IMG/VR virus record: IMGVR_UViG_3300046816_000301
Span: 1 to 55,164 of that record
Direction: 5' to 3' (one strand)
DNA length: 55,164 bases
DNA from: a virus
Taxonomy: Duplodnaviria > Caudoviricetes
Shown here: positions 3,678 to 50,592 of the stretch, piece by piece
How the letters are laid out: each line of letters starts with the position of its first letter
How positions within the stretch are numbered: position 1 is the first letter of the stretch
Program-made: the position numbers and the translations under genes
The notes under the pieces: model-generated
Told to the model about the DNA's origin: nothing
The model's database searches: none
Seen by the model: the letters and a program-made list of their open reading frames with translations, nothing else

Positions 3678-3731
3678 ATATAGTTCCTATAGGATATACA
3701 CAGCTAACTCTACCCACGCAAGTTTATAGAT

Positions 3732-4334
3732 ATGAGCGTTGCAGACCAGGAAGCAGAGCTGGACGATATCATCGATCGCGTGCTCGTCCTCTCGGACAAC
3801 CCGGACGTCGAGGACGCGCTGATCCTGCGCCTGCAATACGACATCGCCGCGAAGATCCATCTCCCCGAGGAAATCGTCCGGCGCTACGGCCTGCCGGACC
3901 TGGATGCCTTGAAGGAATACCTGGTCCAGCACCCGCAAGTGGTGTTCGGCGCTAAAAAACTCCGGGCGCTGTTCGAGAGCGGTGAGGGCGTCGAAGCCCG
4001 CATGCGGGCCAAGTTTCAGTTCGCCACCGAGGACTGCATCCCGGTGATCAGCCAACTGGTGAACAACCCCTCGGTGCCGTTCGCGGCGAGGATAGATGGT
4101 TTCAAACAACTACAGAGAGGGGCGGGCGCCGACGGCGCCGGCCGCGCCGAGGGACGTGGGCCGCTCAGCAGCGGGCAGAGTTTTGTGTTGAATATTTTCC
4201 TAGACCCGAAGCACCGCACGACGATCTCGGGGACAACAGTAGATAACCCCGGAGACATTCCGGGGGCGTATGACCCGCCGAGATTAGCTCTCGGCGAGGA
4301 GGGCGAGGAACCCGACGAGGAAGCTGATGTGTGA
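3732..4334 (+). CDS. Putative terminase small subunit
   Basis: 200 aa, helical with acidic tail, directly upstream of TerL. Assignment is mainly positional. Confidence 0.6.
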   Translation: MSVADQEAELDDIIDRVLVLSDNPDVEDALILRLQYDIAAKIHLPEEIVRRYGLPDLDALKEYLVQHPQVVFGAKKLRALFESGEGVEARMRAKFQFATEDCIPVISQLVNNPSVPFAARIDGFKQLQRGAGADGAGRAEGRGPLSSGQSFVLNIFLDPKHRTTISGTTVDNPGDIPGAYDPPRLALGEEGEEPDEEADV

Positions 4335-4336
4335 GT

Positions 4337-4351
4337 TCCCTACCGTAGGGA
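4337..4351. repeat. Palindrome P copy (terS-terL junction)
   Basis: TCCCTACCGTAGGGA. Confidence 0.95.
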
Positions 4352-4354
4352 GAT

Positions 4355-4403
4355 GAGCGAAGTGCGCCGAGCAGTGCGCAGGCGCGCGGGAGCGAGTGGG
4401 AGA
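4355..4403 (+). repeat. Structured repeat S copy A
   Basis: GAGCGAAG-tgcgcc-GAGCAGTGCGCA-ggcgcg-CGGGAGCGAGTGGGAGA. Confidence 0.9.
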
Positions 4404-4406
4404 TAA

Positions 4407-5810
4407 ATGGACTACCACGCCCCGCCCACCGTCGCCGCGTTTATGCTGGATAGCAAGACGCGGATACGTACCCTTGTTGGCCCACTTGGAAGTGGGAAAA
4501 CAATGGGGTGTGTTATGGAGTTGCTAAAGCGCGGCTGCGAGCAGCAGCCCCATAACGGCGTGCGCTACACCAGGTTCGCGCTGATCAGGAATACTTTACA
4601 ACAGCTCCGTCAGACAGTGCTCGCAGATGCACTGCAGTACCTCGGTCCCTGCGCGCATTTCTACACCACGGACTCGACCTTGCAGGTCAGGCTCCGCCTG
4701 CCTGACGGGACGGGGGTGCACTCCGACTGGCCGTTGATCCCGCTGGACTCGAAGGAGGACGTGCGCAGGTTGCTGTCCATGCAGCTCACCGGCGCTTATG
4801 TGAATGAACTACGAGAAGTTCCTTTTGAGATTATCAGGCCGCTGCTGGGAAGATGCGGAAGATATCCAAGCAAAGCTCTTGGGGGAGCTACCTGGAGAGG
4901 AATAATTTGCGACACCAACCCGTGGGATACCGACAGCCCGTATCACGACCGGATGGTGCTCAACCCGAAGCCCACCTGGAAATTATATCACCAACCCTCG
5001 GGCATAAGCTCCGACGGGGAAAACACCGAGAACCTGCCCGACGGCTATTACGCAGACCTGATGGAAGACCACGACGTGGACTGGGCGTCGGTCCATGTCG
5101 AGAGCCAGTGGGGGACTTCCAACGCCGGGCAGGCGGTGTTCAGAAAAACCTTTCACGCACCCACCCACGTCAAGGATATGGGGGTGCTGGTCAACCCCAA
5201 TAAGCCAGTGATGATCGGCCTGGACTTTGGCAGAACCCCCTGTGCCATAATAGGTCAACATGACAACTTCGGCAGAGCAATAATAATGAAAGAAGTTGTT
5301 ACGGAAGGTATGGGTTTAATTCAGATGATCGAGGAGCATCTTAAGCCAGTACTCCTCGCGCCGCCCTTCGCCGGCAAGCGCGTGTTTGTGGTAGCAGACC
5401 CCGCCGGGGCGCAGCGCTCGCAGCTCAGCGAGGAGACGGCGTTTATGGTGCTTAAAGATCAAGGATTTTTAGCTTATCCTGCTTCTACTAATTCTATAGA
5501 TCTAAGGTTACTAGCAGTAGAAAAACTACTCCGCCAGCAAATATTAGGGGAACCTGCTCTACAGATTAGTAGAGCAGGTTGCCCAATACTTATTACGTCC
5601 CTCGGTAATAAGTACCGCTACCGGCGTCGTCGAGATGGCAATCTCGACGATATCCCCGAGAAGCTCCACCCGTGGAGCGATATCTCCGACGCCCTGCAGT
5701 ATTTTTGCCTAGGCACCCAGAGTAATTTAACCGGGCGGGTGCTCAACCGCGACCGCCCGAGGATCATGAACAATAATCAAACACTGGTGTCGGCGGCGGG
5801 GTGGACATGA
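4407..5810 (+). CDS. terL: Terminase large subunit
   Basis: Walker A GPLGSGKT, Walker B-like GAYVNELRE, coupling motif DTNP, nuclease motifs IGLDFG and DISDALQY. Confidence 0.93.
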   Translation: MDYHAPPTVAAFMLDSKTRIRTLVGPLGSGKTMGCVMELLKRGCEQQPHNGVRYTRFALIRNTLQQLRQTVLADALQYLGPCAHFYTTDSTLQVRLRLPDGTGVHSDWPLIPLDSKEDVRRLLSMQLTGAYVNELREVPFEIIRPLLGRCGRYPSKALGGATWRGIICDTNPWDTDSPYHDRMVLNPKPTWKLYHQPSGISSDGENTENLPDGYYADLMEDHDVDWASVHVESQWGTSNAGQAVFRKTFHAPTHVKDMGVLVNPNKPVMIGLDFGRTPCAIIGQHDNFGRAIIMKEVVTEGMGLIQMIEEHLKPVLLAPPFAGKRVFVVADPAGAQRSQLSEETAFMVLKDQGFLAYPASTNSIDLRLLAVEKLLRQQILGEPALQISRAGCPILITSLGNKYRYRRRRDGNLDDIPEKLHPWSDISDALQYFCLGTQSNLTGRVLNRDRPRIMNNNQTLVSAAGWT

Positions 5811-5854
5811 GCGAAGCTCGCGCGGATCAGCGCGCAGCGGGAGCGAATGGGAGA
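5809..5854 (+). repeat. Structured repeat S copy B (different loop)
   Basis: GAGCGAAG-ctcgcgc-GGATCA-gcgcgcag-CGGGAGCGAATGGGAGA. Confidence 0.8.
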
Positions 5855-6035
5855 TAGGAGTGATCTACACGACCACTGGGAGAGAGGCCCAGCCTTGTGG
5901 AGGGGCTGGACCCCGCTACTACCGACGAACTATGATGAGCTTGATCCTGACGGACCAAAGTACCATAATCCACGGCAGGAGCCGGCGATGGGTACGAGCC
6001 ATCGTTTTCTCTCCTGTGGTGCGGCGCCGGGCTAA
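5847..6035 (+). CDS. Hypothetical protein
   Basis: 62 aa ORF filling the gap after terL on the same strand. Confidence 0.4.
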   Translation: MGDRSDLHDHWERGPALWRGWTPLLPTNYDELDPDGPKYHNPRQEPAMGTSHRFLSCGAAPG

Positions 6036-6075
6036 TCCCCGGCGCCGTTTTCATTTATGGCACAGGGGATAAATA

Positions 6076-6306
6076 ATGGAAGTAATTAGAACTCCCAGCG
6101 TCACCGGCATCGTCGAGTATCTTGAGCGCCTGCTGAAGCAAGCCCACGCCGGCGAGCTGTCAACCGTGTTCGTCGTATCGTTCAAGGCCGGAGACAGCAC
6201 CTGGCTGTCGGTCGAGAAGGGCGTGCGCCTGGATCGGCTAAGAGCGATCGGGGTGCTCGAGTGCATGAAGCTCGACCTGATGCGCTCGATGGATACTGAG
6301 GAGTGA
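6076..6306 (+). CDS. Hypothetical protein
   Basis: 76 aa, AGGGGA RBS, coupled to the next gene (GTGA). Confidence 0.7.
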   Translation: MEVIRTPSVTGIVEYLERLLKQAHAGELSTVFVVSFKAGDSTWLSVEKGVRLDRLRAIGVLECMKLDLMRSMDTEE

Positions 6307-6584
6307 GCCACGACCGCCTGATCTGGGCGGCGTTTGCTGCGGTGGCCCTGCTGGTTGTGGTAACCGGCGCCCTGGTCTTTGGCGGCGTTTTCTTCGCCCC
6401 GGGCAGCGACAGCGTTATCAGGCAGATGATCGAGGGGCGGGTGCTCTCGCGCGGGATCGCCCTCTTCCTGATCATCCCGACGATTGCACTGCTATGCCTG
6501 CAAAACAAAATCCACGGCGACGCCGCGCTGGCCGCGCTCTCGGCGATCGCCGGCTACATCCTCGGCAGCACTTCCGGTCAGTGA
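6303..6584 (+). CDS. Small membrane protein (2-3 TM; holin-like possibility)
   Basis: Hydrophobic segments LIWAAFAAVALLVVVTGALVFGG, GIALFLIIPTIALLCL and AALAALSAIAGYILG. Confidence 0.6.
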   Translation: MSHDRLIWAAFAAVALLVVVTGALVFGGVFFAPGSDSVIRQMIEGRVLSRGIALFLIIPTIALLCLQNKIHGDAALAALSAIAGYILGSTSGQ

Positions 6585-6631
6585 CGAGCTGCGCTAGTAT
6601 CTATAGTAGTTATATTAGTAGGGGAGGTAAC

Positions 6632-6859
6632 ATGAGCAACCCACGGGCTTACGTGCGCTGCGACGGGCGGCGGATCGAGCTGAACCTCTACGACAACGCG
6701 ATCGTCAATCAAGTGACGATCGCGGCCGACGACGCGATCCTCCTGGCCAAGGAGCTGCTCACGCAGGCGCTGCGCATGAAAGACGTAGAGGCGAGGGATA
6801 AACGCGCCGACGCTTACGCGGCGGGGAACGCCAGGCACCCCTTACCTTTATCCCGATGA
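6632..6859 (+). CDS. Hypothetical protein
   Basis: Strong GGAGGT RBS before ATG 6632 (internal start of ORF 6494..6859). Confidence 0.65.
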   Translation: MSNPRAYVRCDGRRIELNLYDNAIVNQVTIAADDAILLAKELLTQALRMKDVEARDKRADAYAAGNARHPLPLSR

Positions 6860-7113
6860 AAAAACATCCCCCGCCCGGACCCGACGACCCCTTGGTCAAG
6901 GCCGCGCAGCCGTTCAGGGAGTGGCAGCGCCCCAAGGTGTGCGACTACCGCGAGGGATGCTGGGTCAACGACGGGCCGAGCGCGTGCAGCCACGTATCGG
7001 GCGGCGGGTCTTTTTGTAAAGCGTGCGACGGCGACATCCGTCACCAGAGCATGCGCCACTTCAAATGGAGTGAAGCGCTAAAACAAGCGGAAACATTAGT
7101 CACTGGGGATTAA
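6856..7113 (+). CDS. Hypothetical Cys-rich protein
   Basis: ATGA overlap with the previous gene; several Cys including CKAC. Confidence 0.6.
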   Translation: MKKHPPPGPDDPLVKAAQPFREWQRPKVCDYREGCWVNDGPSACSHVSGGGSFCKACDGDIRHQSMRHFKWSEALKQAETLVTGD

Positions 7114-7174
7114 AGGGAGTGACACTTGGACCAACCAAAGTGTCACTCCCGCTACCGGCTCGAAGCTAGGAGAT

Positions 7175-7200
7175 AACCCCACCGGCTGACGGGGGTTTTT
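7175..7200 (+). terminator. Probable intrinsic terminator of the terminase operon
   Basis: AACCCC-ACCGGCTGACG-GGGGTTTTT hairpin plus T run after the last + strand gene. Confidence 0.55.
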
Positions 7201-7268
7201 CCGGCGCACTCCCCGCCTTACCGCCCCGGAGGTAAATGAGTAAAACCCTCCGGTAGTTTAGTATCTTA

Positions 7269-7313
7269 CCATTCGCTCTCGCACCGCTCCGTACTACTCG
7301 CGGTGCTTCGCTC
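7269..7313 (-). repeat. Structured repeat S copy C
   Basis: GAGCGAAG-caccgc-GAGTAGTACGGA-gcggtg-CGAGAGCGAATGG. Confidence 0.85.
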
Positions 7314-7375
7314 TTCTTTTCGTTTGCCGCAGCCTGCTTCCTTCGGCAGAGGAACGCCGAGCATATAAACCATTT

Positions 7376-7677
7376 TCATCCGTTAAACAACTCGCCAGGG
7401 CGCACCCCTAAAGCTCGAGCGAGCTTTATGAGGTTATCCAAACCGATGTTGCGCTCGCCGCGCTCTACACTCCCGACGTAGGTCGGGTGGAGCTGCGCCG
7501 CCGCGAGAGGGCCGCCGAGGGAGCTTAGAGCTTCGTCGGGTAAAGAGCCGCTGGGGGCGGCTCCCCGACGCGCGACAGGGTTTAATACTTAGGCTCCTCC
7601 TGTGTCCAGCCGCGTGCCATACGCAGCTGGCGCACGCGCTGCCCGAGCCGCTCTCTGTCTGACCGCCCCACCGGCAT
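7376..7677 (-). pseudogene. XRE/Cro-C1 HTH regulator interrupted by an ~83-nt insert
   Basis: 5' half MPVGRSDRERLGQRVRQLRMARGWTQEE(P) stops at 7582. The 3' half, in another frame, reads LAAAQLHPTYVGSVERGERNIGLDNLIKLARALGVRPGELFNG* and ends at 7376. Removing 83 nt gives a 72-aa HTH_3 protein. Confidence 0.85.
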
Positions 7678-8099
7678 AGCGGTATTCCCGACGCCGGTAC
7701 AAAAATAAGTCCACAGACGATGGCGCGCTGGTCTCGACGATCCTCTGCCTCCGCTTGGTGAACCAAGCGGATCAGCTCCTCGCACGGCTCGATCATGCGG
7801 TGGCGCACGGTGGAGACCCGACGCCTGACATTCCCTTGAGTAAACTCAAGGCGAATGGAGATGTGCTTGGTGCCTTGACGCTGCGATAGAGCAGTGTCAA
7901 TGAGCGGTATCGACACGCCGAGATGTTGGGCAACATCCCGGCGCGGCGGGAACGGCTCGCCGGCGTCATGCAGTATAACGCAGAAGACCAGAAACTTCGC
8001 CGTCGCCACGGGCGGCCGCATGATCGGTTCCTCTTCCTGAAGCCAGGTCATGACGGCGCGCACCGCATGTTCCGAAGGGCGCGGCAGATCAACTCCCAA
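7434..8099 (-). CDS. Putative winged-HTH protein; the C-terminal ~90 aa overlap the XRE gene and may be non-functional read-through
   Basis: PFPPRRDVAQHLGVSIPLIDTAL is HTH-like; GAGGA RBS before TTG 8099. Confidence 0.55.
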   Translation of the reverse strand: MGVDLPRPSEHAVRAVMTWLQEEEPIMRPPVATAKFLVFCVILHDAGEPFPPRRDVAQHLGVSIPLIDTALSQRQGTKHISIRLEFTQGNVRRRVSTVRHRMIEPCEELIRLVHQAEAEDRRDQRAIVCGLIFVPASGIPLCRWGGQTESGSGSACASCVWHAAGHRRSLSIKPCRASGSRPQRLFTRRSSKLPRRPSRGGAAPPDLRRECRARRAQHRFG

Positions 8100-8380
8100 G
8101 TTTTCCTCCTCTGGAAATACGCGAGCCTTGTGCTCAGCGCAGAACCTGTGTTGTGCTCCACGTTAGTCCATAAGAGCTATATTTATATGACAGCGAGGGA
8201 CAGCAAGCTACAAAATACGTCGGAGCGTAATATGGGGGTAATTCGCTAATCCCTTACGAGCCAAGGGATTAGCGGTGGATATGCCTGTGGATAACTCTGT
8301 GAGTAACCCGACAAGTACAAACAAATACAGCCGCGTCATGACGCGGCTGTATTGTGTGGTGTTTAGGGTGTAGCGCGGCG

Positions 8381-8686
8381 CTACAAAACTTTGTCGTGTG
8401 CCGGGACGTACATAATGTCGCAGGGTTCGTAGTCGTCGCCGCCGGCGCCGCAGTCGCGGCACCCACCGACCGAGTCGTCGCTGTCGGTGCACCATTTCTG
8501 CTTCCTGATATTCCAGAAAGCGGAGGCGTCAACTATCTTGACGCGAGCGCTGCCACAGGTGCCGCAGACCGCGAGCATTATCTCCCGCTCGCTCCCGTGC
8601 GCCTGCGCACTGCTCAGCGCACTTCGCTCGTCGCCGTCCGGCGATGACGCCGGAGGCGGAAAGATATTGTCCTCCCTGTCGTCCAT
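8381..8686 (-). CDS. Small zinc-ribbon protein (alternative start 8578)
   Basis: CGTCGS...CRDCG. ATG 8578 is preceded by GGGAGA supplied by a repeat copy. Confidence 0.6.
   Translation of the reverse strand: MDDREDNIFPPPASSPDGDERSALSSAQAHGSEREIMLAVCGTCGSARVKIVDASAFWNIRKQKWCTDSDDSVGGCRDCGAGGDDYEPCDIMYVPAHDKVL
8581..8629 (-). repeat. Structured repeat S copy D
   Basis: GAGCGAAG-tgcgct-GAGCAGTGCGCA-ggcgca-CGGGAGCGAGCGGGAGA. Confidence 0.9.
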
Positions 8687-8987
8687 GCGTTTTTTCCTGC
8701 ATATAGGTTTTATAGATAGGTAGCTTAGCTTACGATGTTCCCTGTAGAATGCCAACGCAATAAGGCGTGAATTTAGGTTCGTAATATACATAAAATGCTA
8801 GTTATTACGAAATTTAATAACCTCGAATTTTAACCACGACGAAACGTAGCATTTTAGTGACTTCGGAAATTTATCATTCTCGTGGCGACGCGTTACGTGG
8901 GCGCCCGGCCTGGCCGGCCCCCCTTGGACAGCTACCCCCCGGGGGCCTGGCCGTGCCTTGGCCGGTGACAGAAAGCGGTGACAGAAA

Positions 8988-9002
8988 ACCCTACCGTAGG
9001 GA
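8988..9002. repeat. Palindrome P copy (upstream of gene 9070)
   Basis: ACCCTACCGTAGGGA. Confidence 0.95.
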
Positions 9003-9069
9003 ATTTGGGCAGAAACTATCGGATGACACAGTAGTGAGGGTTCCCCTCGTTTTCATAGGAGATACTAAA

Positions 9070-9867
9070 GTGAGTGAGAAGAAATTGACTGGAAAGCTGT
9101 TGGTCGCCGATATTGTCGGGAAGCAAATCGCAACTCTTGAAGACGTTTACGCTGACGTGAACGTTGCGACCGATGGTCTTAGTGTCGCCAACAAGGCAGC
9201 ATCCGCCGAGCGCCGCACCATAATGGATAACTGCGCTGCACTCGCACTTACGCACAACTTCACGGCTGAGGAAATAAAGCTTGGCGTAGAGGCAGCAATC
9301 ACCAGCTACAAGGGCAATGCGCTGGCACAAAAGACGCTCGACAACATCAAGAGCGAACTTAAGTCCGTAATGCATCCAAACGTTCGAGCCAAGCTGCCAG
9401 AACTACGCAAACTTGCGAAGAGCGTCATCGCCGATAAGACGCGGTATGCCGATCTTGCTGACGCATTTAGCGGCAGGGAAGATTTCATCGTGGCACGCGT
9501 TGCGGCTGACGCTGCCAAAGCGCGCCACGATTTGAAGGAACCGCCAGTCACAGTTGAGGGTCTACGGTCGCTTGTGACCAAACGTGACACGGCACGTTCG
9601 CAAAGCATCCCGCGCGTAAAGGGTAAGCTGAAGACGATGATAACCATCTGCAACGAGGCGGAAGCTATCCTTAAGCTGCCGCAGTTCGCCAAGATCCGAG
9701 TACTATGCGAAGCGTTGAACGATGACGCTACCCTAAAGGCGGCGCTCGCCAAATACATAACGGAAACGAAAAACGCCAGCAACCTGCGCGGCGCGAACGG
9801 CAAGGAAAAGGCCGCACCTGCGGAAGGCGCGAGTGATATGGATGACGTGCTAAACGACGCGGCCTAG
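9070..9867 (+). CDS. Hypothetical helical protein, monocistronic (likely GTG start 9070)
   Basis: AGGAGA RBS before GTG at 9070 within ORF 8857..9867; followed by two terminators. Confidence 0.75.
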   Translation: MSEKKLTGKLLVADIVGKQIATLEDVYADVNVATDGLSVANKAASAERRTIMDNCAALALTHNFTAEEIKLGVEAAITSYKGNALAQKTLDNIKSELKSVMHPNVRAKLPELRKLAKSVIADKTRYADLADAFSGREDFIVARVAADAAKARHDLKEPPVTVEGLRSLVTKRDTARSQSIPRVKGKLKTMITICNEAEAILKLPQFAKIRVLCEALNDDATLKAALAKYITETKNASNLRGANGKEKAAPAEGASDMDDVLNDAA

Positions 9868-9892
9868 CAAACCGCACTACCTACACCTACCC

Positions 9893-9921
9893 TGCCCCCA
9901 GTGAAAACTGGGGGCATTTTT
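9893..9921 (+). terminator. Intrinsic terminator
   Basis: TGCCCCCAGT-GAAA-ACTGGGGGCA-TTTTT. Confidence 0.9.
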
Positions 9922-9966
9922 GCGTTTAAAACGCAACGGTATCGTGGCGTTGATAAACCATCTAGG

Positions 9967-9995
9967 AAGGCCGCCAGTGCGGCCTTTTGTGTTTT
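9967..9995 (+). terminator. Second intrinsic terminator
   Basis: AAGGCCGC-CAGT-GCGGCCTT-TTGTGTTTT. Confidence 0.7.
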
Positions 9996-10095
9996 GGCTA
10001 GGGAGGTACCTGCGACACGCTAGACCCTACTCACGCGCCACGAGGCGCCGGCGCTGGCCTATTCTACGCGTGACCCATGCCCTACAAGTCCTATA

Positions 10096-10135
10096 GACGC
10101 CCTGCCGACGCCGTGCCGACGCCGTGCCGACACGG
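10096..10135. repeat. Short tandem repeat, 11-bp unit TGCCGACGCCG x3
   Basis: gacgccc-tgccgacgccg-tgccgacgccg-tgccgacacgg. Confidence 0.75.
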
Positions 10136-10635
10136 TGTAAGTAACACAGCGCAAGTGTCACTCCAAAAACCTACACTGTCACGTCGCAGTAGTTGGGAAA
10201 CTAGATAGTAATTCGCCACTACGAGGGTATAACATACTGATAACGCGTAATCTTACGCGTTCCGCCGAAACGCGAGCGATGGAAGAGAGCTGAATTAGTC
10301 CGCACGTTTTACGATAGGACGCGGCGCCGTACCCGACAATTTTATCCGTAAGACGCGAACTAGGGGCAAACACGGGGTATAAACCGCTGATATTTATATA
10401 TATTATTTTAAGACTATTATTATTATTATACTAACTCGGTTTGACGATACGTGGATTTAGTCGATTTCCTAATTGCTATGGTCGCCGTCGATGTCTCTTT
10501 ATGTACCCCTATCTTTCCGGTTTAGATTAATAGAGTAGGTACTAATAGAAAAACATTGTTTGTTATGAATGGTTTAAACCCCCGGCATTATTCTAGGATG
10601 CTGACATTGCGACGCTGAATTTGCTACCCACAAAA

Positions 10636-10650
10636 TCCCTACGGTAGGGA
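10636..10650. repeat. Palindrome P copy (abuts first iteron)
   Basis: TCCCTACGGTAGGGA. Confidence 0.95.
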
Positions 10651-10651
10651 A

Positions 10652-10899
10652 TGACCCCTATTTGGCGCTTAGCCGCTACCATAAAAATATTATTTCTATA
10701 AAGTGACCCCTATTTGGCGGATGCTATCGTCGAAAGTGACCCCTATTTGGCGGATGCGAGTGTGAAAGTGACCCCTATTTGGAGCGTGCGATGTCGAGTG
10801 TGACCCCTCAATCGTCGCGTATCAAGATCACTTTGACCCCTATTTTGGAGCGTAGGGTCCGCGACACGCAGATTGCAGCCGGAAATGTGACCCCTTTTT
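10652..10899 (+). repeat. Seven iteron-like direct repeats TGACCCCT(ATTTGG) beside an AT-rich tract; candidate origin or packaging site
   Basis: Cores start at 10652, 10704, 10737, 10769, 10801, 10834 and 10888; AT-rich DNA at ~10380-10620. Confidence 0.85.
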
Positions 10900-10974
10900 C
10901 GCGCTTCATCGTGCATCTGATCGAGCGCGGACTGGATCAGCTCGACGCGGAATTGATAGGAGAGGAGCAAACGG

Positions 10975-11169
10975 ATGAGCAAGAGGAAGCGTAAACGCAC
11001 CGTAAAAACATCCACCGTAGAAATAGGTATGTGGTCGAGACCGGGGTTCCGTCGAGTGGAACCCCTGTCTTCACCGCTCGCAGGTACCTTAGACTACGAT
11101 CAGCTCGGCCGTCACCGTCATACACTAAACGAACTACGTGACCGGAGGAAAGGTTATGTCACTTACTAA
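10975..11169 (+). CDS. Hypothetical basic protein
   Basis: GAGGAG RBS; 64 aa. Confidence 0.5.
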   Translation: MSKRKRKRTVKTSTVEIGMWSRPGFRRVEPLSSPLAGTLDYDQLGRHRHTLNELRDRRKGYVTY

Positions 11170-11413
11170 GCTGACCGTAATGCAAGAGGTCGTGTTACAC
11201 CGCGACGTGAGCCTAGCGCTGCGCTCGACGCTGCGCGACTGCGAGAACGGTATGCCGGAAGAGTTGGTAGTAAACTCGCTCGCGCTTAATAATGTCCCGG
11301 TCGAGATCACGCGCGGCGTGATCGCGTTGCTTCTTAATGCTGAGTGGATCGCCCGTCGAGATGGGCGCTTGTACTATGTGAGTTACGACGAAACAAAGGA
11401 TCAAAAACTATGA
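11156..11413 (+). CDS. Hypothetical small protein (wHTH-like pattern)
   Basis: GGAGGA RBS upstream of ATG 11156; ends in L...EWI.RRDGRLYY. Confidence 0.55.
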   Translation: MSLTKLTVMQEVVLHRDVSLALRSTLRDCENGMPEELVVNSLALNNVPVEITRGVIALLLNAEWIARRDGRLYYVSYDETKDQKL

Positions 11414-11449
11414 CCGATCAGAGGTATACTTGGTAAAACAAAGTAATAC

Positions 11450-11478
11450 TTGACATTTACAATAACGTGTGGTATAAT
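11450..11478 (+). promoter_or_regulatory. Consensus sigma70 early promoter
   Basis: TTGACA (11450-55), 17 bp, TATAAT (11473-78), with extended -10 TG and an AT-rich upstream element. Confidence 0.92.
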
Positions 11479-11505
11479 CAAAATAAAACCCAAGTAACCG
11501 CAAAT

Positions 11506-11520
11506 TCCCTACTGTAGGGA
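11506..11520. repeat. Palindrome P copy (downstream of sigma70 promoter)
   Basis: TCCCTACTGTAGGGA. Confidence 0.95.
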
Positions 11521-11776
11521 AAATCTTTAGGAGAGTAGAAATGGACGAGTTGAACATGACAGACTGTCGAGTTTGAGATGACCGACACAATGGAAAACTT
11601 CCTTGCCGATCTTCGTTTCATTCTGTCAACGCGCGGTGCTTTGCGGCATCAGCCGCTTGTGCGCAGCCATTTCTGGCGTCGGCTCGAAGAATTGCGCGGG
11701 CGAGCGGCTTTTCGATAAAACCGCAGTCGCGGCCAAGGTGGGCGCGCGCTGTAACCCTTAACCAAGGAGAGACTAA

Positions 11777-12073
11777 ATGACTGAGTATGTTTCCGAGTTC
11801 GGCAAACGGTGGGACGCTCGTGTCCCGCGAGGTGATATTCACTGGTACATGGGTCGCGTCCACGTCGCCACGTCCGACGAAGACGTCGCGGCCGATATCC
11901 GCAAGCGCTGTACCGCGCCGGGTTTCACCGAGACGCTTATCAAGGCGTCGATCAGGTATGCGCTCGTGTGTCACAAGCGCAATCGTCAGCTATACCACTA
12001 CGTCGCCCATCCGCGTGGCGACGCAGAGCTGCGCCACAACATGGACCGTTGGCAGAGGGAGCTAAAGCGGTGA
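11777..12073 (+). CDS. Hypothetical early protein
   Basis: AAGGAG RBS; 98 aa. Confidence 0.7.
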   Translation: MTEYVSEFGKRWDARVPRGDIHWYMGRVHVATSDEDVAADIRKRCTAPGFTETLIKASIRYALVCHKRNRQLYHYVAHPRGDAELRHNMDRWQRELKR

Positions 12074-12264
12074 AGAAACTGCACTGTGAAGCTCGCTCGG
12101 CTCCACTGGCTGAGCCTGTCGGGTTGTGTAAGCGCGGCAGCGTGTTTACGACGATCACCCGTCGCGCGTTCGACCGTGTCGTGCCGGCGCGAGCGTGCGC
12201 GAAGTGCAGCTACCAGCTGCGCAAGCTCAAGCGCGGTGCTACCGCGCCCACTTGGTACAGATAA
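12070..12264 (+). CDS. Hypothetical Cys-containing protein
   Basis: GTGA overlap with the previous gene; CAKC motif. Confidence 0.5.
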   Translation: MKKLHCEARSAPLAEPVGLCKRGSVFTTITRRAFDRVVPARACAKCSYQLRKLKRGATAPTWYR

Positions 12265-12278
12265 TATAGGAGTGATAG

Positions 12279-12500
12279 ATGTCTGAATTGTTCGTAGGTA
12301 TCATGTTCGTCGGGTCGTGGGTGTTCTTCGCGGCGATAACAGAACCGCCGTGGGTAGGCGTGTTCCTCATCGGGTTGGCATCGTGCGGCGGGCTGTACGG
12401 TCTCGCCAACCACGTCGACGCATCTGCTTGGCAAGCGTGGGGCGGCATCATGCTGCTCGGCGTCGTCATCCTGATCGGCCAATACAAATACGGCCGTTAA
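12279..12500 (+). CDS. Small membrane protein
   Basis: AGGAG RBS; three hydrophobic stretches. Confidence 0.65.
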   Translation: MSELFVGIMFVGSWVFFAAITEPPWVGVFLIGLASCGGLYGLANHVDASAWQAWGGIMLLGVVILIGQYKYGR

Positions 12501-12504
12501 ACCC

Positions 12505-12521
12505 GTCCCTACCGTAGGGAC
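12505..12521. repeat. Palindrome P copy (intergenic)
   Basis: GTCCCTACCGTAGGGAC followed by TTTTT. Confidence 0.95.
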
Positions 12522-12539
12522 TTTTTAGGAGCATGAAAA

Positions 12540-12719
12540 ATGGCACGTTATGAGGTTCGGGTTGTCTATCGCGGTCTGTCTAACTTCATCGTCGAGGCCG
12601 CGACGCCGGAAGAGGCCAAGGAGAAGGCACGGGAGATGTTCAACAACGGCGAGGAGGCGCCGGTGCTCGGCAACGAGTGGGAAGAGATCGACACCGTTCA
12701 CATGCCTATCCAGATCTAA
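12540..12719 (+). CDS. Hypothetical 59-aa protein (below ORF-track cutoff)
   Basis: Hand translation MARYEVRVVYRGLSNFIVEAATPEEAKEKAREMF...; AGGAG RBS; VEA..PEEA..KA pattern common in small phage proteins. Confidence 0.65.
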   Translation: MARYEVRVVYRGLSNFIVEAATPEEAKEKAREMFNNGEEAPVLGNEWEEIDTVHMPIQI

Positions 12720-12736
12720 ACTCAGGAGAACTTCAA

Positions 12737-13993
12737 ATGAACTTATCAGAAGCAAAACAGGTGATGCTGCGCACCCACATCGGCGCGATCGAGCATGAGC
12801 TGCGAGCGGTCTCCATCACGATGGAGAGCATGCCTGGCGTGGGTAAGAGCGAGGCGCTCTTCCAGTACGCGCAGATGCTCGCGCACCGCCTCAACGAACC
12901 CGTCGGGGTCGTTGTCTGCATGCTCGCGTCCATCAGCTCGGCCGATGTTCGCGGGTTCATGATCCCCATGCGTGGATCTCCACCCAAGAGCGTGTTCTCG
13001 CTCCCGCCGTGGTACCCCACCAACGACGAAGAGGAGGTGGACGGGGAGGTCACAACCAAATCGGTGAACTACTGGGTGATTGACCCGTCGGGTCAGTGGT
13101 ACCGCGAAAGCGGTTGGCACGACGCGATGCCCGAGACGGGGATCGTGTTCCTCGACGAGTGGGGCCAGGCCGAGGAGGACGTCAAGAAGCCCGCAGCTGA
13201 ACTCCAGCTTAATGGGAACGTCGGGACCCACCGGCTCCCCATCAAGTGGCGCGTCGTCGCCGCGCAGAACCGCACGAGCGACCGCTCGGGTGTCATGCGT
13301 GAGATGATGCACATTATTAATAGGAGGATGTTGTTAAAAATAGATAGCTCCGTCCCGACGTGGCTGCAGTGGACCGACGAGCAGGTGGGCTTTATGCGGC
13401 CACACTTTATGACCGTCGCGTTCGCGAGACAAAATCCCGATATTGTCTTCAGGGACTCAGTTCCTGATGGCACCGATCCCTACTGCACACCTAGAACACT
13501 GTGCATGATGGATCGCACGTTGAGGATGTTGGTGGAGTACGAGCCTCGCAGGCTCGATCCTTCGGGAAGCTCGGCGAGCAGTGCGCAGCCGAGCGGGAGC
13601 GAGTGGGAAAAAGAACTCCCCACTGATGATATAGCGAGGGAGTGCGCAGCGGGATTGATCGGCGGCGCGGCCGCCGGTCAGTTCATGACCTTCCTCAAGT
13701 ACTTCGACCTCCTGCCCACGATCGAGGAGATCATAGATGATCCGAGTGAGGCAAAACTCCCGTCGGGTCACGACGCCCAGATGGTCGCGGCGTTTATGCT
13801 AGCTCATCATATTGATGAGCAGAACGCCGATCCGTTCCTGAAGTACATTTTCAGGATGGTCCCCGAGATGCAGATACTCAGCGTGCAGATCGTCAACGCC
13901 GATCCCAAGCGGGCGCAGTTTTTGTATCCGCTGCCGGGGTTCCAGCGCTTCCTCACCCAGCACAAAGATCTGCTGGTCGGGAGTTACATGTGA
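12737..13993 (+). CDS. MoxR-like AAA+ ATPase
   Basis: Walker A SMPGVGKS, Walker B IVFLDEW, sensor VVAAQNR, TPRT; AGGAG RBS before ATG 12737. Confidence 0.88.
   Translation: MNLSEAKQVMLRTHIGAIEHELRAVSITMESMPGVGKSEALFQYAQMLAHRLNEPVGVVVCMLASISSADVRGFMIPMRGSPPKSVFSLPPWYPTNDEEEVDGEVTTKSVNYWVIDPSGQWYRESGWHDAMPETGIVFLDEWGQAEEDVKKPAAELQLNGNVGTHRLPIKWRVVAAQNRTSDRSGVMREMMHIINRRMLLKIDSSVPTWLQWTDEQVGFMRPHFMTVAFARQNPDIVFRDSVPDGTDPYCTPRTLCMMDRTLRMLVEYEPRRLDPSGSSASSAQPSGSEWEKELPTDDIARECAAGLIGGAAAGQFMTFLKYFDLLPTIEEIIDDPSEAKLPSGHDAQMVAAFMLAHHIDEQNADPFLKYIFRMVPEMQILSVQIVNADPKRAQFLYPLPGFQRFLTQHKDLLVGSYM
13563..13608 (+). repeat. Structured repeat S copy E (inside AAA+ gene)
   Basis: CGGGAAG-ctcggc-GAGCAGTGCGCA-gccgag-CGGGAGCGAGTGGGA. 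Confidence 0.9.
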
Positions 13994-14097
13994 TCGAGCA
14001 TCGATCGCATGTCCCGCCATGCGTTTCCCCGATCAGGGGATACGTTGATCGGAAGCTACATGTAGCTTAACGTGTATCAAATATAGGAGCTGTAGAA

Positions 14098-15012
14098 ATG
14101 AACGATTTAGATGTGACGACGGCCCTGCGTCAGGCAGGCATGCTCGCGGATGTGAGCATCAGTACGTGGGGAGGTACACGTACTGATAATGGGTTACTCA
14201 ACGAGGTCAAGCGCCAGCACAACGCCCACGGCGACGTGGGGCGCATGATGAAGAACCTACTGGCCGGGCACGATGCTAGATTAAAAGCCGCCAGGGGCGC
14301 CTACAACGCGGTCAGGCAGCGCTATTACGAGCTGACCCTGCCGTGGACCTCGGACCCTCATGCCTTGCGGCAAACAGGCCCGCGCCTGTTGACGTTCCCG
14401 CTCTTCGACAACTTCATGAAGGAGATGGCGGCAGCCAAGCGCGTCGCGTTCGACGCTAGAGATACGTTTGTCGAGCACTACGACGAGGACGCCGAGGCGG
14501 CGAGGGGTAATTTGGGTGGGTTGGTTCTCGAGACGGAATATCCGTCTCGAGACGAAGTCAGTGCTGCGTTCCGCATCCACTTCGACATTGAGCCTATCCC
14601 CGAAAGCTCTACCTTTCGGGGGCTTCCGGACCTCGCGCTGAACTCCCTTAAGAAAAACCTCGACAAGAAGCGCGAGGCACAGGTGAAGGCAGCCCAAAGC
14701 GCAGCTTGGGCTGAGTCACGGGAGCGCGTCGAGCATCTTATTAAGCGCCTCACCGAAGCGCCGGTGCCTACTGCACCGGACAAATCCCCGCGCTTTAAAA
14801 ACTCCACGGTCGAGAACGTGCGCGAGTTACTTGAACTTCTCCCTGGCTGGAACATTACCGACAATCCGCTGGTTGCGGATATCGTCGGCGATCTGAAGCA
14901 AATGCTTCAGAACGTGACGGCCGAGTCCCTACGTAGGGACGACGCGCTGCGCGCTGCTACTGCGCAGAATGCGCAGAGCGTGATTGATAAGATGAAGGGA
15001 TGGGGTATGTGA
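14098..15012 (+). CDS. Conserved helical phage protein (DUF3150-like) of the AAA/vWA cassette
   Basis: YELTLPW...GPRLL and YPSRDEVSAAF motifs; lies between the AAA+ and vWA genes. Confidence 0.6.
   Translation: MNDLDVTTALRQAGMLADVSISTWGGTRTDNGLLNEVKRQHNAHGDVGRMMKNLLAGHDARLKAARGAYNAVRQRYYELTLPWTSDPHALRQTGPRLLTFPLFDNFMKEMAAAKRVAFDARDTFVEHYDEDAEAARGNLGGLVLETEYPSRDEVSAAFRIHFDIEPIPESSTFRGLPDLALNSLKKNLDKKREAQVKAAQSAAWAESRERVEHLIKRLTEAPVPTAPDKSPRFKNSTVENVRELLELLPGWNITDNPLVADIVGDLKQMLQNVTAESLRRDDALRAATAQNAQSVIDKMKGWGM
14925..14940. repeat. Palindrome P copy, no spacer (in CDS)
   Basis: GTCCCTACGTAGGGAC, encodes SLRRD. Confidence 0.95.
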
Positions 15013-15412: not shown

Positions 15413-16693
15413 ATGAACCGCTTACCAAACAAGCTTGAGCTTACGGATGCTCAAGAACGTCAGATGACCGAGGCGCGCGTCGCGTTCATGCGGGCGTGCG
15501 CGTTCTTCGGGTACTACTATTGGGACAAGATGGTCGAGTGGCCCACCGACGAGGTGGCCACGGCGGCCACCGATGGCAAGAGGATTATGTTCAACCCCGC
15601 CTATTTGGCGGGGTTGAAACCTCAGGAGCGGTGCTTTGTGCTGGCGCACGAGGTGTATCACACGATCCTGCGGCATCCGCAGAGGATGGCCACGTACCGC
15701 AAGACAGGTAAGGTACGCGGGTTACCTTATGATGCGCAGCTGTTTAATATCGCCGCCGACTACGTGATCAACGACATGCTGGTAAAAAATCATATCGGGT
15801 TGTGTAACCCGAGCTGGCTGCACGATCCGCAGTATACCGAGCAGATGTCGGTCGAGGACGTCTACGAGAAGCTTTACAAGAAACTTCCACCACCTCCGGG
15901 CGGGGGCGGCGAAGCGGAGCGGGGAGATAAACCCAAGACGCGCGGCGAGACACATAGGGGAGGGAAACCTGATCCGCAAGCGCAGGAGGGCAGGTTCGAT
16001 ACGGTTCATGAACCCTACCAAGATCCCGCGACGGGGCGCGAGGATGCTCCGGGCGAGACCGAGTTCCGCGAGGCGATAGCCAAAGCGGTCGCGGCAGCGA
16101 AAGCCGTAGGGACGCTGCCCGGTTCGTTACAACGAACCGTGGACGAGATCATGGAGCCGCAAATTGATTGGAAGGAGCACATACGCATGGAGCTGACCGG
16201 CAAGCTGGGAGCCAGGCGCGAGACCTGGGACCGGCCCAACCGGCGCCGGCTGGTGCTTAATCCCATAATCTATCTTCCTGGGAAGAAAGGTTATGGGGTG
16301 GAGCTGGTGTGCGTTGCAATCGACAGCTCGGGTTCGATCGGCGAGGCGGAGTACTCGGCGTTCTTCGCCGAGACGGCAGCCGTCCTCAGTGACTGCCGGC
16401 CGCGCGAGGTTATGATGATATGGTGCGACGCGCGAGTTCAACGTGTTGAACGAGCACGCTCGCTCGACGAGCTAGAGGCAATACGGGTATCACCGACACC
16501 AGGCGGCGGGGGGACGAGCTTTATCCCACCCTTTGAATATCTTGCAGAGCAAGATGTGAGACCAGATACCCTCGTGTATCTTACCGACATGATGGGTCCG
16601 TTCCCGCAAGCTAAACCAAACTACCCGGTAATTTGGTGCAAGACCACGGACTACAAGGCGCCGTGGGGTGAGGAGGTGCGCATCACGATCTGA
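15413..16693 (+). CDS. Metallopeptidase-like (HExxH) plus vWA domain protein (DUF2201 type)
   Basis: TAATDG, LAHEVYH, NIAADYVIN; MIDAS-like IDSSGSI, GGGGTSF, YLTD. Confidence 0.9.
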   Translation: MNRLPNKLELTDAQERQMTEARVAFMRACAFFGYYYWDKMVEWPTDEVATAATDGKRIMFNPAYLAGLKPQERCFVLAHEVYHTILRHPQRMATYRKTGKVRGLPYDAQLFNIAADYVINDMLVKNHIGLCNPSWLHDPQYTEQMSVEDVYEKLYKKLPPPPGGGGEAERGDKPKTRGETHRGGKPDPQAQEGRFDTVHEPYQDPATGREDAPGETEFREAIAKAVAAAKAVGTLPGSLQRTVDEIMEPQIDWKEHIRMELTGKLGARRETWDRPNRRRLVLNPIIYLPGKKGYGVELVCVAIDSSGSIGEAEYSAFFAETAAVLSDCRPREVMMIWCDARVQRVERARSLDELEAIRVSPTPGGGGTSFIPPFEYLAEQDVRPDTLVYLTDMMGPFPQAKPNYPVIWCKTTDYKAPWGEEVRITI

Positions 16694-50343: not shown

Positions 50344-50592
50344 CTAAACGCTCCCCGCGCCGGTGGTGTTGCGGTTGGGCAAAGCCGGCCCGCCAAGGGA
50401 GCCGCTCTTCTTCGCCAGCGCCCGCTTCAGCGAGACCGGGCCGCCAGTCGATGCCGGCCCCGGGATCGGCCGCTGCGGCACGGAGTGCCCCCAAGTACCG
50501 CCCGAATTATTAACGTTGTTGTCGTCGCCGGTGTCGTTAGTGCCGCCGCCCTTGCCTTTGTAATAAGGCCCACCAATTTGCCCGTGCATCAT
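50344..50592 (-). CDS. Small Gly-rich protein
   Basis: AGGAGG RBS before ATG 50592/50589 (internal start of ORF 50344..50811). Confidence 0.5.
   Translation of the reverse strand: MMHGQIGGPYYKGKGGGTNDTGDDNNVNNSGGTWGHSVPQRPIPGPASTGGPVSLKRALAKKSGSLGGPALPNRNTTGAGSV

What the first reader, a model, noticed from the sequence alone, without database searches (positions are those of the whole stretch)
4355..13608. Dispersed ~47-nt element with a covarying stem (five copies): unrecognised structured RNA or ssDNA motif
Seen: consensus GAGCGAAG-[6-nt arm]-GAGYAGTRCGSA-[complementary arm]-CGRGAGCGARYGG. Flanks and loop are conserved while the arms differ yet keep pairing: tgcgcc/ggcgcg (4355+), tgcgct/ggcgca (8629-), caccgc/gcggtg (7313-), ctcggc/gccgag (13563+), and ctcgcgc/gcgcgcag with another loop (5809+). 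G.T wobbles favour the stated strand. Copies on + lie in rightward units and copies on - in leftward ones. All are clustered in 4-14 kb around the control/origin region. Established: d(GCGAAGC)-type cGNAg mini-hairpins are very stable in ssDNA and occur in phage origins and promoters, and ColE1-type primosome assembly sites have similar purine-rich GAGCG/GAAGC words. Inference: a protein-binding RNA hairpin (translational or antitermination control), an ssDNA priming signal, or a tiny mobile element.
Basis: partly seen in the sequence, partly recalled or inferred. Interest (0 to 1): 0.85.

Follow-up and report, generated by a model that had tools for sequence, protein, structure and literature searches.

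The report
Movable hairpin cassettes between phage genes
A soil phage carries five copies of a roughly 55-base hairpin element with fixed flanks and a changeable but always-paired stem, which sits between genes (once inside a gene) and comes and goes between near-identical phages, so it looks like a small structured RNA signal that spreads as a cassette.

Summary
The window is a ~90% complete temperate podophage record from IMG/VR. It holds exactly five copies of a ~55-nt element: GAGCGAAG, a 7-bp stem, a loop, then CGGGAGCGARYGG(GAGATAA). Eight distinct copies (window plus near-identical fragments) show 53 of 53 stem cells paired, and 4 of 7 pairs have changes on both sides. All six sites are sense to the local genes. 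New points:

- Copy c5 is an in-frame insertion in a MoxR-like ATPase gene. It is absent from 18 of 19 aligned homologues.
- Copy c1 is missing, and a sixth copy (c6) is present, in near-identical genomes and in 3 of 4 soil or rhizosphere runs.
- c1≈c4 and L005-c3≈c5 are near-identical pairs, which points to recent copying between sites.
- The distal GGAG is kept only where a start codon follows.
- There is no Rfam match. No real copy was found in GTDB genomes, the metagenome sample, or relatives with 77–87% terL identity.

Best reading (0.45): a lineage-restricted, cassette-like intercistronic RNA hairpin with a Shine-Dalgarno tail, gained and lost by copying or recombination. The main rival is purely selfish miniature DNA (0.25). 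The ssDNA-priming and GCGAAGC mini-hairpin ideas are not supported. Novelty: a new variant of a known kind, with moderate interest.

The parts
4352..4406 (+). Copy c1, between the terS-like stop (4332-4334) and the terL ATG (4407). Stem TGCGCC/GGCGCG, loop GAGCAGTGCGCA. Its 3' end GGGAGATAA abuts the start codon.
   Evidence: 80.1 bits. It is absent, replaced by 9 nt, in L006 and in contigs of runs X3, X4 and X5. It is 89% identical to c4 over 64 nt (I1).
5806..5857 (+). Copy c2. Its 5' ATGA contains the terL stop codon (5808-5810). It has a longer stem with one bulge and a 6-nt loop. It is followed by GTG 5860, whose coding status is doubtful.
   Evidence: 58.1 bits. GC3 of 5860-6072 is not coding-like. 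A diverged version with the same 3' box lies at the same site in L018, whose terL is 79% identical.
7262..7316 (-). Copy c3, about 60 nt downstream of the stop (7376-7378) of an XRE-type gene on the - strand. Stem CACCGC/GCGGTG, loop GAGTAGTACGGA. The distal GGAG is lost.
   Evidence: (70.9 bits). The orthologous copy in L005/L006/L007 has stem CTCAGC/GCTGAG and the c5-type loop. X3 and X5 contigs carry the c5-like allele.
8578..8632 (-). Copy c4, in the leader of a small leftward unit. GGGAGATA precedes ATG 8578-8576 of a 65-aa Cys-rich ORF (8381-8578). A terminator-like hairpin follows at 8353-8324.
   Evidence: GC3 0.80 for 8381-8578 against 0.61 upstream; 75.3 bits.
13541..13613 (+). Copy c5, inside the MoxR-like ATPase gene and in frame (…SGSSASSAQPSGSEWEK…). 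In the window its 5' box is split by a 21-nt insert (13545-13565).
   Evidence: phrog_1297 spans residues 24-434; the insertion is absent in 18 of 19 aligned homologues; 69.8 bits.
6838..6857 (+). Empty site for a sixth copy (c6). The window has an ATGA stop/start overlap between genes 6632-6859 and 6856-7113. L005/L006/L007 carry a 64-nt copy here: a stop sits in its 5' ATGA, and GGAGAAGATAA-GTG forms the new start.
   Evidence: 38.2 bits; alignment; 93 letters between in X5; loose ends in X3 and X4.
4407..5810 (+). Large terminase gene, flanked by c1 and c2.
   Evidence: phrog_2, E 2.3e-18.
12764..13993 (+). MoxR-like ATPase gene (409-aa product P0001) that hosts c5. It is followed by a DUF2201 metallopeptidase/VWA gene at 15413-16693.

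Best explanation
The element is a lineage-restricted family of small structured cassettes that are transcribed as part of phage mRNAs. They are always in the sense orientation.

**Anatomy.** Each unit folds into a hairpin with a 7-bp stem of free sequence. The stem brings two fixed purine-rich boxes together: 5' GAGCGAAG and 3' CGGGAGCGARYGG.

**3' tail.** Where a cistron follows, the tail (GGGAGATAA) serves as its Shine-Dalgarno region.

**5' end.** The ATGA at the 5' end can supply the stop codon of the upstream cistron.

**Proposed role.** I propose that the hairpin plus boxes acts after transcription. It could be a binding or processing site that sets mRNA stability or translation of the neighbouring cistron. 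The terminase, a small Cys-rich protein, and the leader and trailer of the leftward units are the candidates.

**How it spreads.** Whole units are copied between sites, or swapped by recombination. A unit is tolerated because it brings its own stop, SD and start signals, or stays in frame inside a gene.

**Shown here:** the copies, the paired covarying stem, the sense orientation, the presence/absence polymorphism, the in-frame insertion, and the SD-context correlation.

**Inferred:** that the active form is RNA, that a factor binds it, and how it is copied.
For: 1. **Structure.** 53 of 53 stem cells are paired in 8 distinct copies. 4 of 7 pairs change on both sides. 0 of 500 shuffles reach this, and slid controls give at most 47.5%. 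The orthologous c3 copies differ by two compensatory pairs.
2. **Strand and RNA.** 6 of 6 sites are sense to local genes. The G.U pairs fall only on that strand. RNA folds give -17.8 to -25.8 kcal/mol with the covarying stem in the minimum-energy fold for 6 of 7 copies. DNA folds give -8.7 to -12.2 and miss it for c1 and c4.
3. **Constraint.** The boxes are nearly invariant while the stems differ. In copies with no start codon behind them, 1 of 63 core columns departs from what c1, c2 and c4 show, against 12 of 21 distal columns. GGAG is kept in c1, c2, c4 and c6 and lost in c3, L005-c3 and c5 (the copies are not all independent).
4. **Older site.** The c2 site in L018 (terL 79% identical) keeps GAGCGAATGGGAGATAG exactly, with a different hairpin.
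5. **Cassette behaviour.** c1 is absent in L006 and in X3-X5, and c6 is present there. c5 is an 18-aa insertion in the window and 11 aa in L005. c1 and c4 are 89% identical over 64 nt.
6. **Not a terminator or promoter.** None of the 18 terminator-like sites and none of the 12 promoter-like sites coincides with a copy.
Against: - There are no expression data: no RNA run holds the stretch.
- No binding protein or nuclease has been identified.
- The outer helix and internal-loop motifs are only weakly supported: 87.5% paired, with no change on both sides.
- There are only 8 distinct sequences, and some are related pairs. The alignment used for the pair counts was fitted to the model.
- The apical loop is replaced in c2 and c6, so it cannot be essential.
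- c5 sits inside a gene and c1 is dispensable in natural relatives. A selfish element would explain both without any function.
- Fold z-scores are modest, from -0.03 to -3.09.
- Box conservation could partly reflect recent copying or gene conversion rather than selection.
Confidence: 0.45

Rival explanations
1. A purely selfish miniature mobile DNA, in the manner of REP, RPE or mitochondrial GC clusters. The hairpin and boxes would be recognition signals for a trans-acting enzyme, or for a template-switching copy process, on single-stranded DNA. The stop and SD features would merely be what lets insertions survive at gene junctions. On this reading the element has no function for the phage.
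For: - c1 and c6 are present or absent between near-identical genomes and in 3 of 4 laid runs.
- c5 is inserted in frame in an ATPase gene whose 18 of 19 aligned homologues lack it.
- c1≈c4 and L005-c3≈c5 are near-identical pairs at different sites.
- The family is absent from relatives with 77-87% terL identity.
- c2 and c6 are flanked by TGA…TGA.
Against: - The unit has no terminal inverted repeats. Its ends are direct GAGCGA repeats instead.
- The TGA duplication is seen at only 2 of 7 sites.
- No transposase, HUH or RAYT-like gene appeared among the ORFs I scanned (not every ORF was scanned).
- No real copy was found in GTDB species genomes with the strict pattern. The 9 hits all scored 20.2 bits or less.
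- The stems differ widely while the boxes stay fixed, which plain decay of dead copies does not predict.
- Patches of synonymous divergence around c6 and c1 point to recombination rather than fresh insertion.
Confidence: 0.25
2. A DNA-level signal. The repeated GAGCGA words (two or three per unit) would be binding sites for a phage or host DNA-binding protein. Alternatively, the conserved boxes would act as short boundary homologies that promote module exchange between phages.
For: - GAGCGA recurs in the 5' box, the loop (GAGCAG/GAGCGA) and the 3' box.
- The copies sit at mosaic joints. Sequence around c1, c3 and c6 is locally diverged in genomes that are otherwise about 99% identical.
- The junction after terL differs among relatives.
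Against: - A duplex binding site needs neither a covarying stem nor G.T pairs confined to one strand.
- Strict sense orientation is not required for recombination linkers.
- No solo boxes exist elsewhere in the window.
Confidence: 0.1
3. A processive antitermination site of the nut/put type. Conserved linear boxes plus a hairpin in the nascent RNA would modify RNA polymerase.
For: - The layout is box-hairpin-box, with a free stem sequence and a sense orientation.
- c4 lies in the leader of a leftward unit, next to a divergent intergenic region.
Against: - c1, c2, c5 and c6 lie deep inside or at the ends of operons, not after promoters.
- c5 is inside a coding region.
- No Rfam hit was found.
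- No N-like protein was identified.
- c1 is dispensable in relatives.
Confidence: 0.07
4. A single-strand DNA priming or primosome-assembly signal, or a d(GCGAAGC)-type mini-hairpin.
For: - Purine-rich GAGCG/GAAGC words are present.
- The phage has its own primase-helicase.
- 4 of 8 distinct copies contain GCGAAGC.
Against: - The heptamer is missing in c1, c4, window c5 and c6, and it would compete with the covarying stem.
- DNA-parameter folds are weak.
- If replication starts at the iteron-like repeats (10648-10908), only 3 of 6 sites lie on the lagging-strand template (inference).
- One copy is inside a gene, and copies are optional between relatives.
Confidence: 0.03

Closest known systems
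Start-associated sequences and extended SAS (SAS/ESAS) of Cluster K mycobacteriophages (PMC3203893; passages read)
   Same: - Both are phage-lineage-specific dispersed repeats in one orientation.
- Both lie a few bases upstream of start codons and contain an SD-like core.
- In both, the stop of the upstream gene can lie inside the repeat.
- ESAS adds upstream inverted repeats with a variable spacer.
- The function of SAS/ESAS is unknown, and translation initiation is suspected.
   Different: - The sequences are unrelated (GGGATAGGAGCCC against GGGAGCGAGTGGGAGATAA).
- SAS has 11-19 copies, all at starts. Here there are 5-6 copies, and two sites have no start codon behind them.
- The authors report that departures in the ESAS arms do not support RNA pairing. 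Here 53 of 53 cells pair, with compensatory changes.
- Solo 3' boxes do not occur here.
REP/REPIN elements mobilised by RAYT transposases (PMC3733652 and PMC3116915; abstracts seen in the listing)
   Same: Both are short GC-rich hairpin-forming repeats, mostly between genes and transcribed with them. REPs have been proposed to stabilise mRNA, and they are non-autonomous.
   Different: - REPs are high-copy chromosomal elements with a GTAG or CGTC tag at one end, and their stems are conserved among copies.
- Here there is no such tag, the stems differ between copies, no RAYT was found, and the copies are in a phage only.
Rickettsia palindromic elements (review PMC10969869; passages read)
   Same: Both are palindromic repeats that insert in frame into unrelated protein genes and add a peptide segment.
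   Different: RPEs are about 150 bp, belong to Rickettsia chromosomes and are mostly intragenic. Here the unit is about 55 nt, mostly intercistronic, and carries stop and SD signals.
Lambda nut sites (boxA-boxB) and T7 intercistronic RNase III sites
   Same: Both are sense-oriented RNA hairpins in phage operons, with conserved recognition features and free stem sequence. The T7 sites lie between cistrons in several copies.
   Different: - nut sites follow early promoters and have a 5-bp stem with a pentaloop.
- T7 RNase III sites are about two helical turns long. Here the stem is 7 bp, with purine-rich internal loops.
- No Rfam family matches.

Membership tests
Any Rfam 15 family | Score at or above the family gathering threshold | tested here: not met
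   There were 0 matches at gathering thresholds over the whole window. With E up to 5 over 4-14 kb, no hit overlapped a copy. On c1 alone with E up to 10, the only hit was a 10.2-bit noise match.
REP / REPIN | GTAG or CGTC tetranucleotide tag at one end of the palindrome (PMC3733652, abstract) | tested here: not met
   The stems are flanked by GAAG on the 5' side and CGGG on the 3' side in all 8 distinct copies.
REP / REPIN | High copy number in a bacterial chromosome, with an associated RAYT gene | tested here: inconclusive
   - The strict-pattern scan of GTDB species genomes gave 9 hits, all 20.2 bits or less and without a stem.
- 0 of 151 genomes of one alphaproteobacterial order matched, but few candidates were scored.
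- The host is unknown.
- No RAYT-like hit appeared among the phage ORFs I scanned.
MITE | Terminal inverted repeats | tested here: not met
   The ends GATGAGCGAAG… and …GGGAGATAA are not complementary. The only inverted repeat is the internal stem.
MITE | Target-site duplication | tested here: inconclusive
   TGA…TGA flanks c2 and c6 only, which is 2 of 7 sites. The empty c1 site shows a 9-nt replacement rather than a clean duplication.
SAS/ESAS (Cluster K mycobacteriophages) | 13-bp motif GGGATAGGAGCCC 3-7 bp upstream of start codons | tested here: not met
   The sequence is different. The position is similar at c1, c4 and c6 and possibly at c2, but not at c3 or c5.
Lambda-type nut site | Promoter-proximal position in early operons; boxA plus a 5-bp boxB hairpin; a cognate N protein | tested here: not met
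   Only c4 is in a leader. The others are between late genes, in a trailer or inside a gene. The stem is 7 bp with a 12-nt loop. The boxA/boxB consensus is recalled from memory and was not scanned.
ssi / primosome assembly site; d(GCGAAGC) mini-hairpin | Strand-specific priming on ssDNA; the GCGAAGC heptamer | tested here: inconclusive
   The heptamer is present in 4 of 8 distinct copies and overlaps the covarying stem. DNA folds are weak. Priming activity cannot be tested with these tools.
Intrinsic terminator | GC-rich hairpin followed by a T run | tested here: not met
   None of the 18 terminator-like sites in 3400-14200 coincides with a copy. CGGGAGCGA follows the stems.

The most novel reading that the evidence does not exclude
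The unit is a new kind of junction-seeking mobile cassette. It would be a transposase-less, hairpin-centred element of about 55 nt that copies itself into stop/start overlaps (ATGA) between phage cistrons. It would bring its own stop codon, RNA hairpin and Shine-Dalgarno/start, so that operon expression is rewired rather than broken. It could also land in frame inside genes. Together the copies would form a small regulon read by one RNA-binding factor.
Probability: 0.15. Interest if true: 0.8.

Novelty: new variant of a known kind. Interest (0 to 1): 0.5.

Why it matters
Dispersed start-associated repeats in phages, such as SAS/ESAS, have been known for over a decade without a mechanism. This family differs from them in four useful ways:

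- It has a stem with clear compensatory changes.
- Natural near-isogenic phages exist with and without single copies (c1, c6).
- One copy sits in frame inside a gene.
- The Shine-Dalgarno tail is kept only where a cistron follows.

That makes it a tractable case. It could show whether such repeats act as RNA, what reads them, and how small structured cassettes spread and rewire operons in phage populations. If the element is only selfish DNA, it still documents a very small non-autonomous element in a virus that has no inverted termini.

Tried and rejected
- **Near-identical DNA in cultured phages.** None was found. The closest terL is 39.7% identical, in Rhizobium phages.
- **RNA evidence.** No RNA holder is listed for window 4000-9000.
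- **Metagenome scans.**
  - The strict pattern found 0 stretches.
  - The covariance model was run on 100 of the 120 (L048-L147), with a best score of 26.1 bits.
  - The other 20 were inspected only as printed matches.
- **Loose viral scans.**
  - One scan gave 12 stretches: 3 already known, and 9 others at 23.3 bits or less.
  - The other gave 40 stretches: L005, L006, L007 and L018, plus 36 that had no 5' box or hairpin by eye.
- **Host search.** 0 of 151 genomes of one order matched the model, with low sensitivity. terL-like prophages were found in 11 of 401 genomes of the class, at 42% identity or less. The host is not identified.
- **Extended outer helix.** It is plausible in folds but only weakly supported by counts. 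I do not claim it.
- **Small ORFs within c1 and c2 (16-17 codons).** Rejected, because the frame is closed in the L005 copy of c3 (sequence).
- **Solo 3' boxes.** None were found.
- **tRNA or tmRNA.** None were found.
- **K-turn, loop E or IRE-like readings of the boxes or loop.** I considered these from memory. None fits, and none was tested.
- **A possible further insertion site near 6606 in run X4.** It rests on a 28-letter side of one contig, so I did not count it.
- **Supplementary files of the papers.** These were not opened. The SAS/ESAS alignments in the supplements of PMC3203893 might refine that comparison.

Full report
**What the window is.** The window is a complete IMG/VR virus record of 55,164 bases, classed as linear, with about 90% estimated completeness. 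It encodes the following:

- an SU10-type portal (1398-3677, - strand), a terS-like gene (3732-4334) and terL (4407-5810);
- a MoxR-like ATPase (12764-13993) and a DUF2201 metallopeptidase/VWA protein;
- DNA polymerase, helicase, primase-helicase, an integrase and a block of structural genes on the - strand.

It is therefore a temperate podophage-like genome. The nearest cultured terL is 39.7% identical, from Rhizobium phages. The DNA occurs in many soil and rhizosphere runs.

- The 37-nt degenerate pattern gives four exact matches, against 0.00 expected.
- The 3' box finds all five copies.
- A covariance model built from seven copies (A3, R1) finds exactly five in the window with filters off, at 58.1-80.1 bits.

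The unit is about 55 nt. It reads (G/C)A-x-GAGCGAAG, then a 7-bp stem whose outer G-C pair is invariant, then a 12-nt loop GAGYAGTRCGSA, then the second arm, then CGGGAGCGARYGG, and finally GGAGATAA. In c2 the loop is 6 nt with a longer bulged stem, and in a sixth copy it is 16 nt. The window's c5 has 21 extra bases inside its 5' box, whereas the orthologous copy in L005 is intact.

**Structure.**

- On the eight distinct copies, 53 of 53 stem cells form standard pairs.
- 4 of 7 pairs show changes on both sides (9 cells).
- 0 of 500 column shuffles reach the observed pairing or covariation score.
- Sliding the 3' partners drops pairing to 47.5% or less. That alignment was fitted to the model, which favours the structure somewhat.
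- Independently of the model, the orthologous c3 copies in the window and in L005 differ by two compensatory pairs: CACCGC/GCGGTG against CTCAGC/GCTGAG.
- The two G.U cells (c1, c4) would be A.C on the opposite strand.
- With RNA parameters the covarying stem is in the minimum-energy fold for 6 of 7 copies, at -17.8 to -25.8 kcal/mol. For c4 it is in the centroid only, and z-scores run from -0.03 to -3.09.
- With DNA parameters the energies are -8.7 to -12.2 kcal/mol, and the stem is not in the minimum-energy fold for c1 or c4.
- A further outer helix and G.A-rich internal loops appear in the folds but are only weakly supported by counts.

**Context.** Every copy is sense to its local genes.

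- **c1** lies between terS and terL and ends directly at the terL ATG.
- **c2** begins in the terL stop codon. About 215 nt that do not look coding follow it, and then a strong terminator-like hairpin at 6021-6048.
- **c4** lies in the leader of a small leftward unit, with GGGAGATA directly before ATG 8578. GC3 is 0.80 downstream of that ATG against 0.61 upstream. A terminator-like hairpin follows at 8353-8324.
- **c3** lies about 60 nt after the stop of an XRE-type gene on the - strand.
- **c5** lies inside the ATPase gene, in frame.

None of the 18 terminator-like sites and none of the 12 promoter-like sites coincides with a copy.

**c5 is an insertion in a gene.** The PHROG ATPase profile spans residues 24-434 of the ORF in one stretch. 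The homologue search returned 282 proteins with E of 0.001 or better. I aligned 19 of them, taking the top hits and hits from long contigs. In 18 of the 19, including the closest at 72% and 71% identity, the 18 residues PSGSSASSAQPSGSEWEK have no counterpart. The remaining one (P0024) has an unrelated insertion in the same loop. L005 carries the element there as a net 11-aa insertion.

**Copies come and go.** A pattern scan of viral contigs found three fragments of a near-identical phage: L005, L006 and L007. Their terL is 100% identical at the protein level.

- **c1 is missing there.** The junction reads CCCTACCGTAGGGA-TCTAGCTCC-TGGAC, with nine bases in place of 56.
- **A sixth copy, c6, is present there** between genes 6632-6859 and 6856-7113. 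The window has a plain ATGA stop/start overlap at that spot. In the filled allele the upstream gene stops in the element's ATGA, and the downstream gene starts at GTG after GGAGAAGATAA.
- **Soil and rhizosphere contigs agree.** Runs X3, X4 and X5 show the c1-less junction with the same nine letters, show the c6 allele, and (X3, X5) show a c5-like allele at the c3 site. X2 matches the window.
- **The codons next to c6 differ synonymously** in otherwise identical sequence. At least some of these differences therefore arose by recombination with a diverged relative rather than by fresh insertion.
- **Two pairs of copies are near-identical.** c1 and c4 are 89% identical over 64 nt, including 9 nt upstream of the unit. 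L005-c3 and c5 differ by one compensatory pair. These pairs point to recent copying or conversion between sites.

**Distribution.** The family is narrow.

- Whole records of five relatives with 77-87% terL identity, one of them 99% complete, have no real copy. The best score there is 20.2 bits.
- At the c2 site, L018 (terL 79% identical) keeps GAGCGA…GAGCGAATGGGAGATAG around a different hairpin. That site is therefore older than the window's lineage.
- The scan of GTDB species genomes gave 9 chance-like hits.
- The metagenome scans gave nothing of this family within their limits.
- Rfam has no match.
- My full-text searches for phage intergenic hairpin repeats found no description of this element. 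Those searches cover only the held library.

**Constraint.** The boxes are nearly invariant while the stems fall into about five types.

- In the copies with no start codon behind them (c3, L005-c3, L005-c5), 1 of 63 core columns departs from what c1, c2 and c4 show, against 12 of 21 distal columns.
- GGAG is kept in c1, c2, c4 and c6 and lost in c3, L005-c3 and c5.
- The copies are not independent and the comparison is ungapped, so the P value is nominal only.

I read this as follows: the tail serves as a Shine-Dalgarno sequence where one is needed, and the core is held for another reason.

**Interpretation.** The best fit is a sense-strand RNA element. It would be a hairpin clamp presenting two purine-rich boxes, acting on mRNA stability or translation at cistron boundaries. 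It would be gained and lost as a cassette that carries its own stop, SD and start signals (confidence 0.45).

- A purely selfish miniature DNA explains the gain and loss and the in-frame insertion equally well. It explains the fixed boxes with free stems less well, and I found no inverted termini, no consistent duplication and no transposase (0.25).
- DNA-binding or recombination-linker readings (0.10), nut-like antitermination (0.07) and ssDNA priming or mini-hairpin readings (0.03) fit worse, for the reasons given under rival explanations.

**Comparison and novelty.** The closest described analogue is the SAS/ESAS system of Cluster K mycobacteriophages. It shares the position, the orientation and the SD-like core. 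It has no sequence relation to this element, and by its authors' account no compensatory pairing. REP/REPIN, MITE, RPE, nut and terminator definitions each fail on at least one tested feature (see the membership tests). I therefore rate this a new variant of a known kind, namely dispersed structured intergenic repeats of phages and bacteria, with moderate interest.

Noticed in passing
window 4337, 8988, 10636, 11498, 12506, 17224, 20490, 21993, 26579, 31075, 31129, 33643, 36927, 41986, 54103 (approximate starts): A second and more abundant repeat: the 15-nt near-palindrome TCCCTAC-C-GTAGGGA, with about 15 copies. Most are between genes and several are followed by T runs. One directly abuts c1. 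The same palindrome precedes terL in relatives L006, L010 and L011. It may be a regulator site or a bidirectional terminator.
   Followed up: partly
window 10648-10908 and 11450-11478: Five direct repeats of a 25-mer (AAAGTGACCCCTATTTGGCGGATGC and variants) at 32-119-nt spacing, which look like iterons or operators. About 550 nt to the right lies a perfect TTGACA-17-TATAAT promoter-like site with a TG extension.
   Followed up: no
window 7184-7258 (-): A sub-threshold match to Rfam Proteo-phage-1 RNA (RF03044): 26.5 bits against a gathering score of 42, over the full model length. It lies immediately downstream of c3 on the same strand.
   Followed up: partly
window 7494-7592: The XRE-type helix-turn-helix gene on the - strand is interrupted in the window by a 99-nt segment. 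Contigs of runs X3-X5 have 16 nt there, which gives an uninterrupted reading. In L006 a near-identical segment lies elsewhere in the opposite orientation. This could be a rearrangement, another small mobile segment, or an assembly artefact.
   Followed up: partly
window 5860-6075: About 215 nt between c2 and the next gene show no coding-like GC3 pattern. The stretch contains hairpins and ends in a strong terminator-like stem (6021-6048). It is identical in L006. It may be a small RNA.
   Followed up: no
L006 3060-3075 (terS-terL junction): In the c1-less allele, the conserved terL start ATG GAC TAC reads CTG GAC TAC, and an in-frame TAG lies two codons upstream. terL there would need a CTG start or a later start.
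   Followed up: no
L010 4800-4896: In a relative whose terL is 99% identical, a small ORF of about 25 codons occupies the terS-terL junction instead of c1. It is preceded by GGGAGCGGGGGGAAATAAATG, which resembles the element's 3' box.
   Followed up: no
window 50602-50684: Two perfect tandem copies of a 41-nt unit, 42 nt apart, inside or next to the tail-fibre-like gene 50589-52244 (D15).
   Followed up: no
L159 10450-11000 and about 27 other metagenome loci (L048, L051, L057 and others): An unrelated abundant repeat in soil metagenome contigs, with a 163-nt tandem unit in L159. It happens to contain both GAGCGAAG and CGGGAGCGAGCGG. There, GAGCGAAG sits in the loop of a long hairpin, so the architecture differs from the phage element.
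   Followed up: partly
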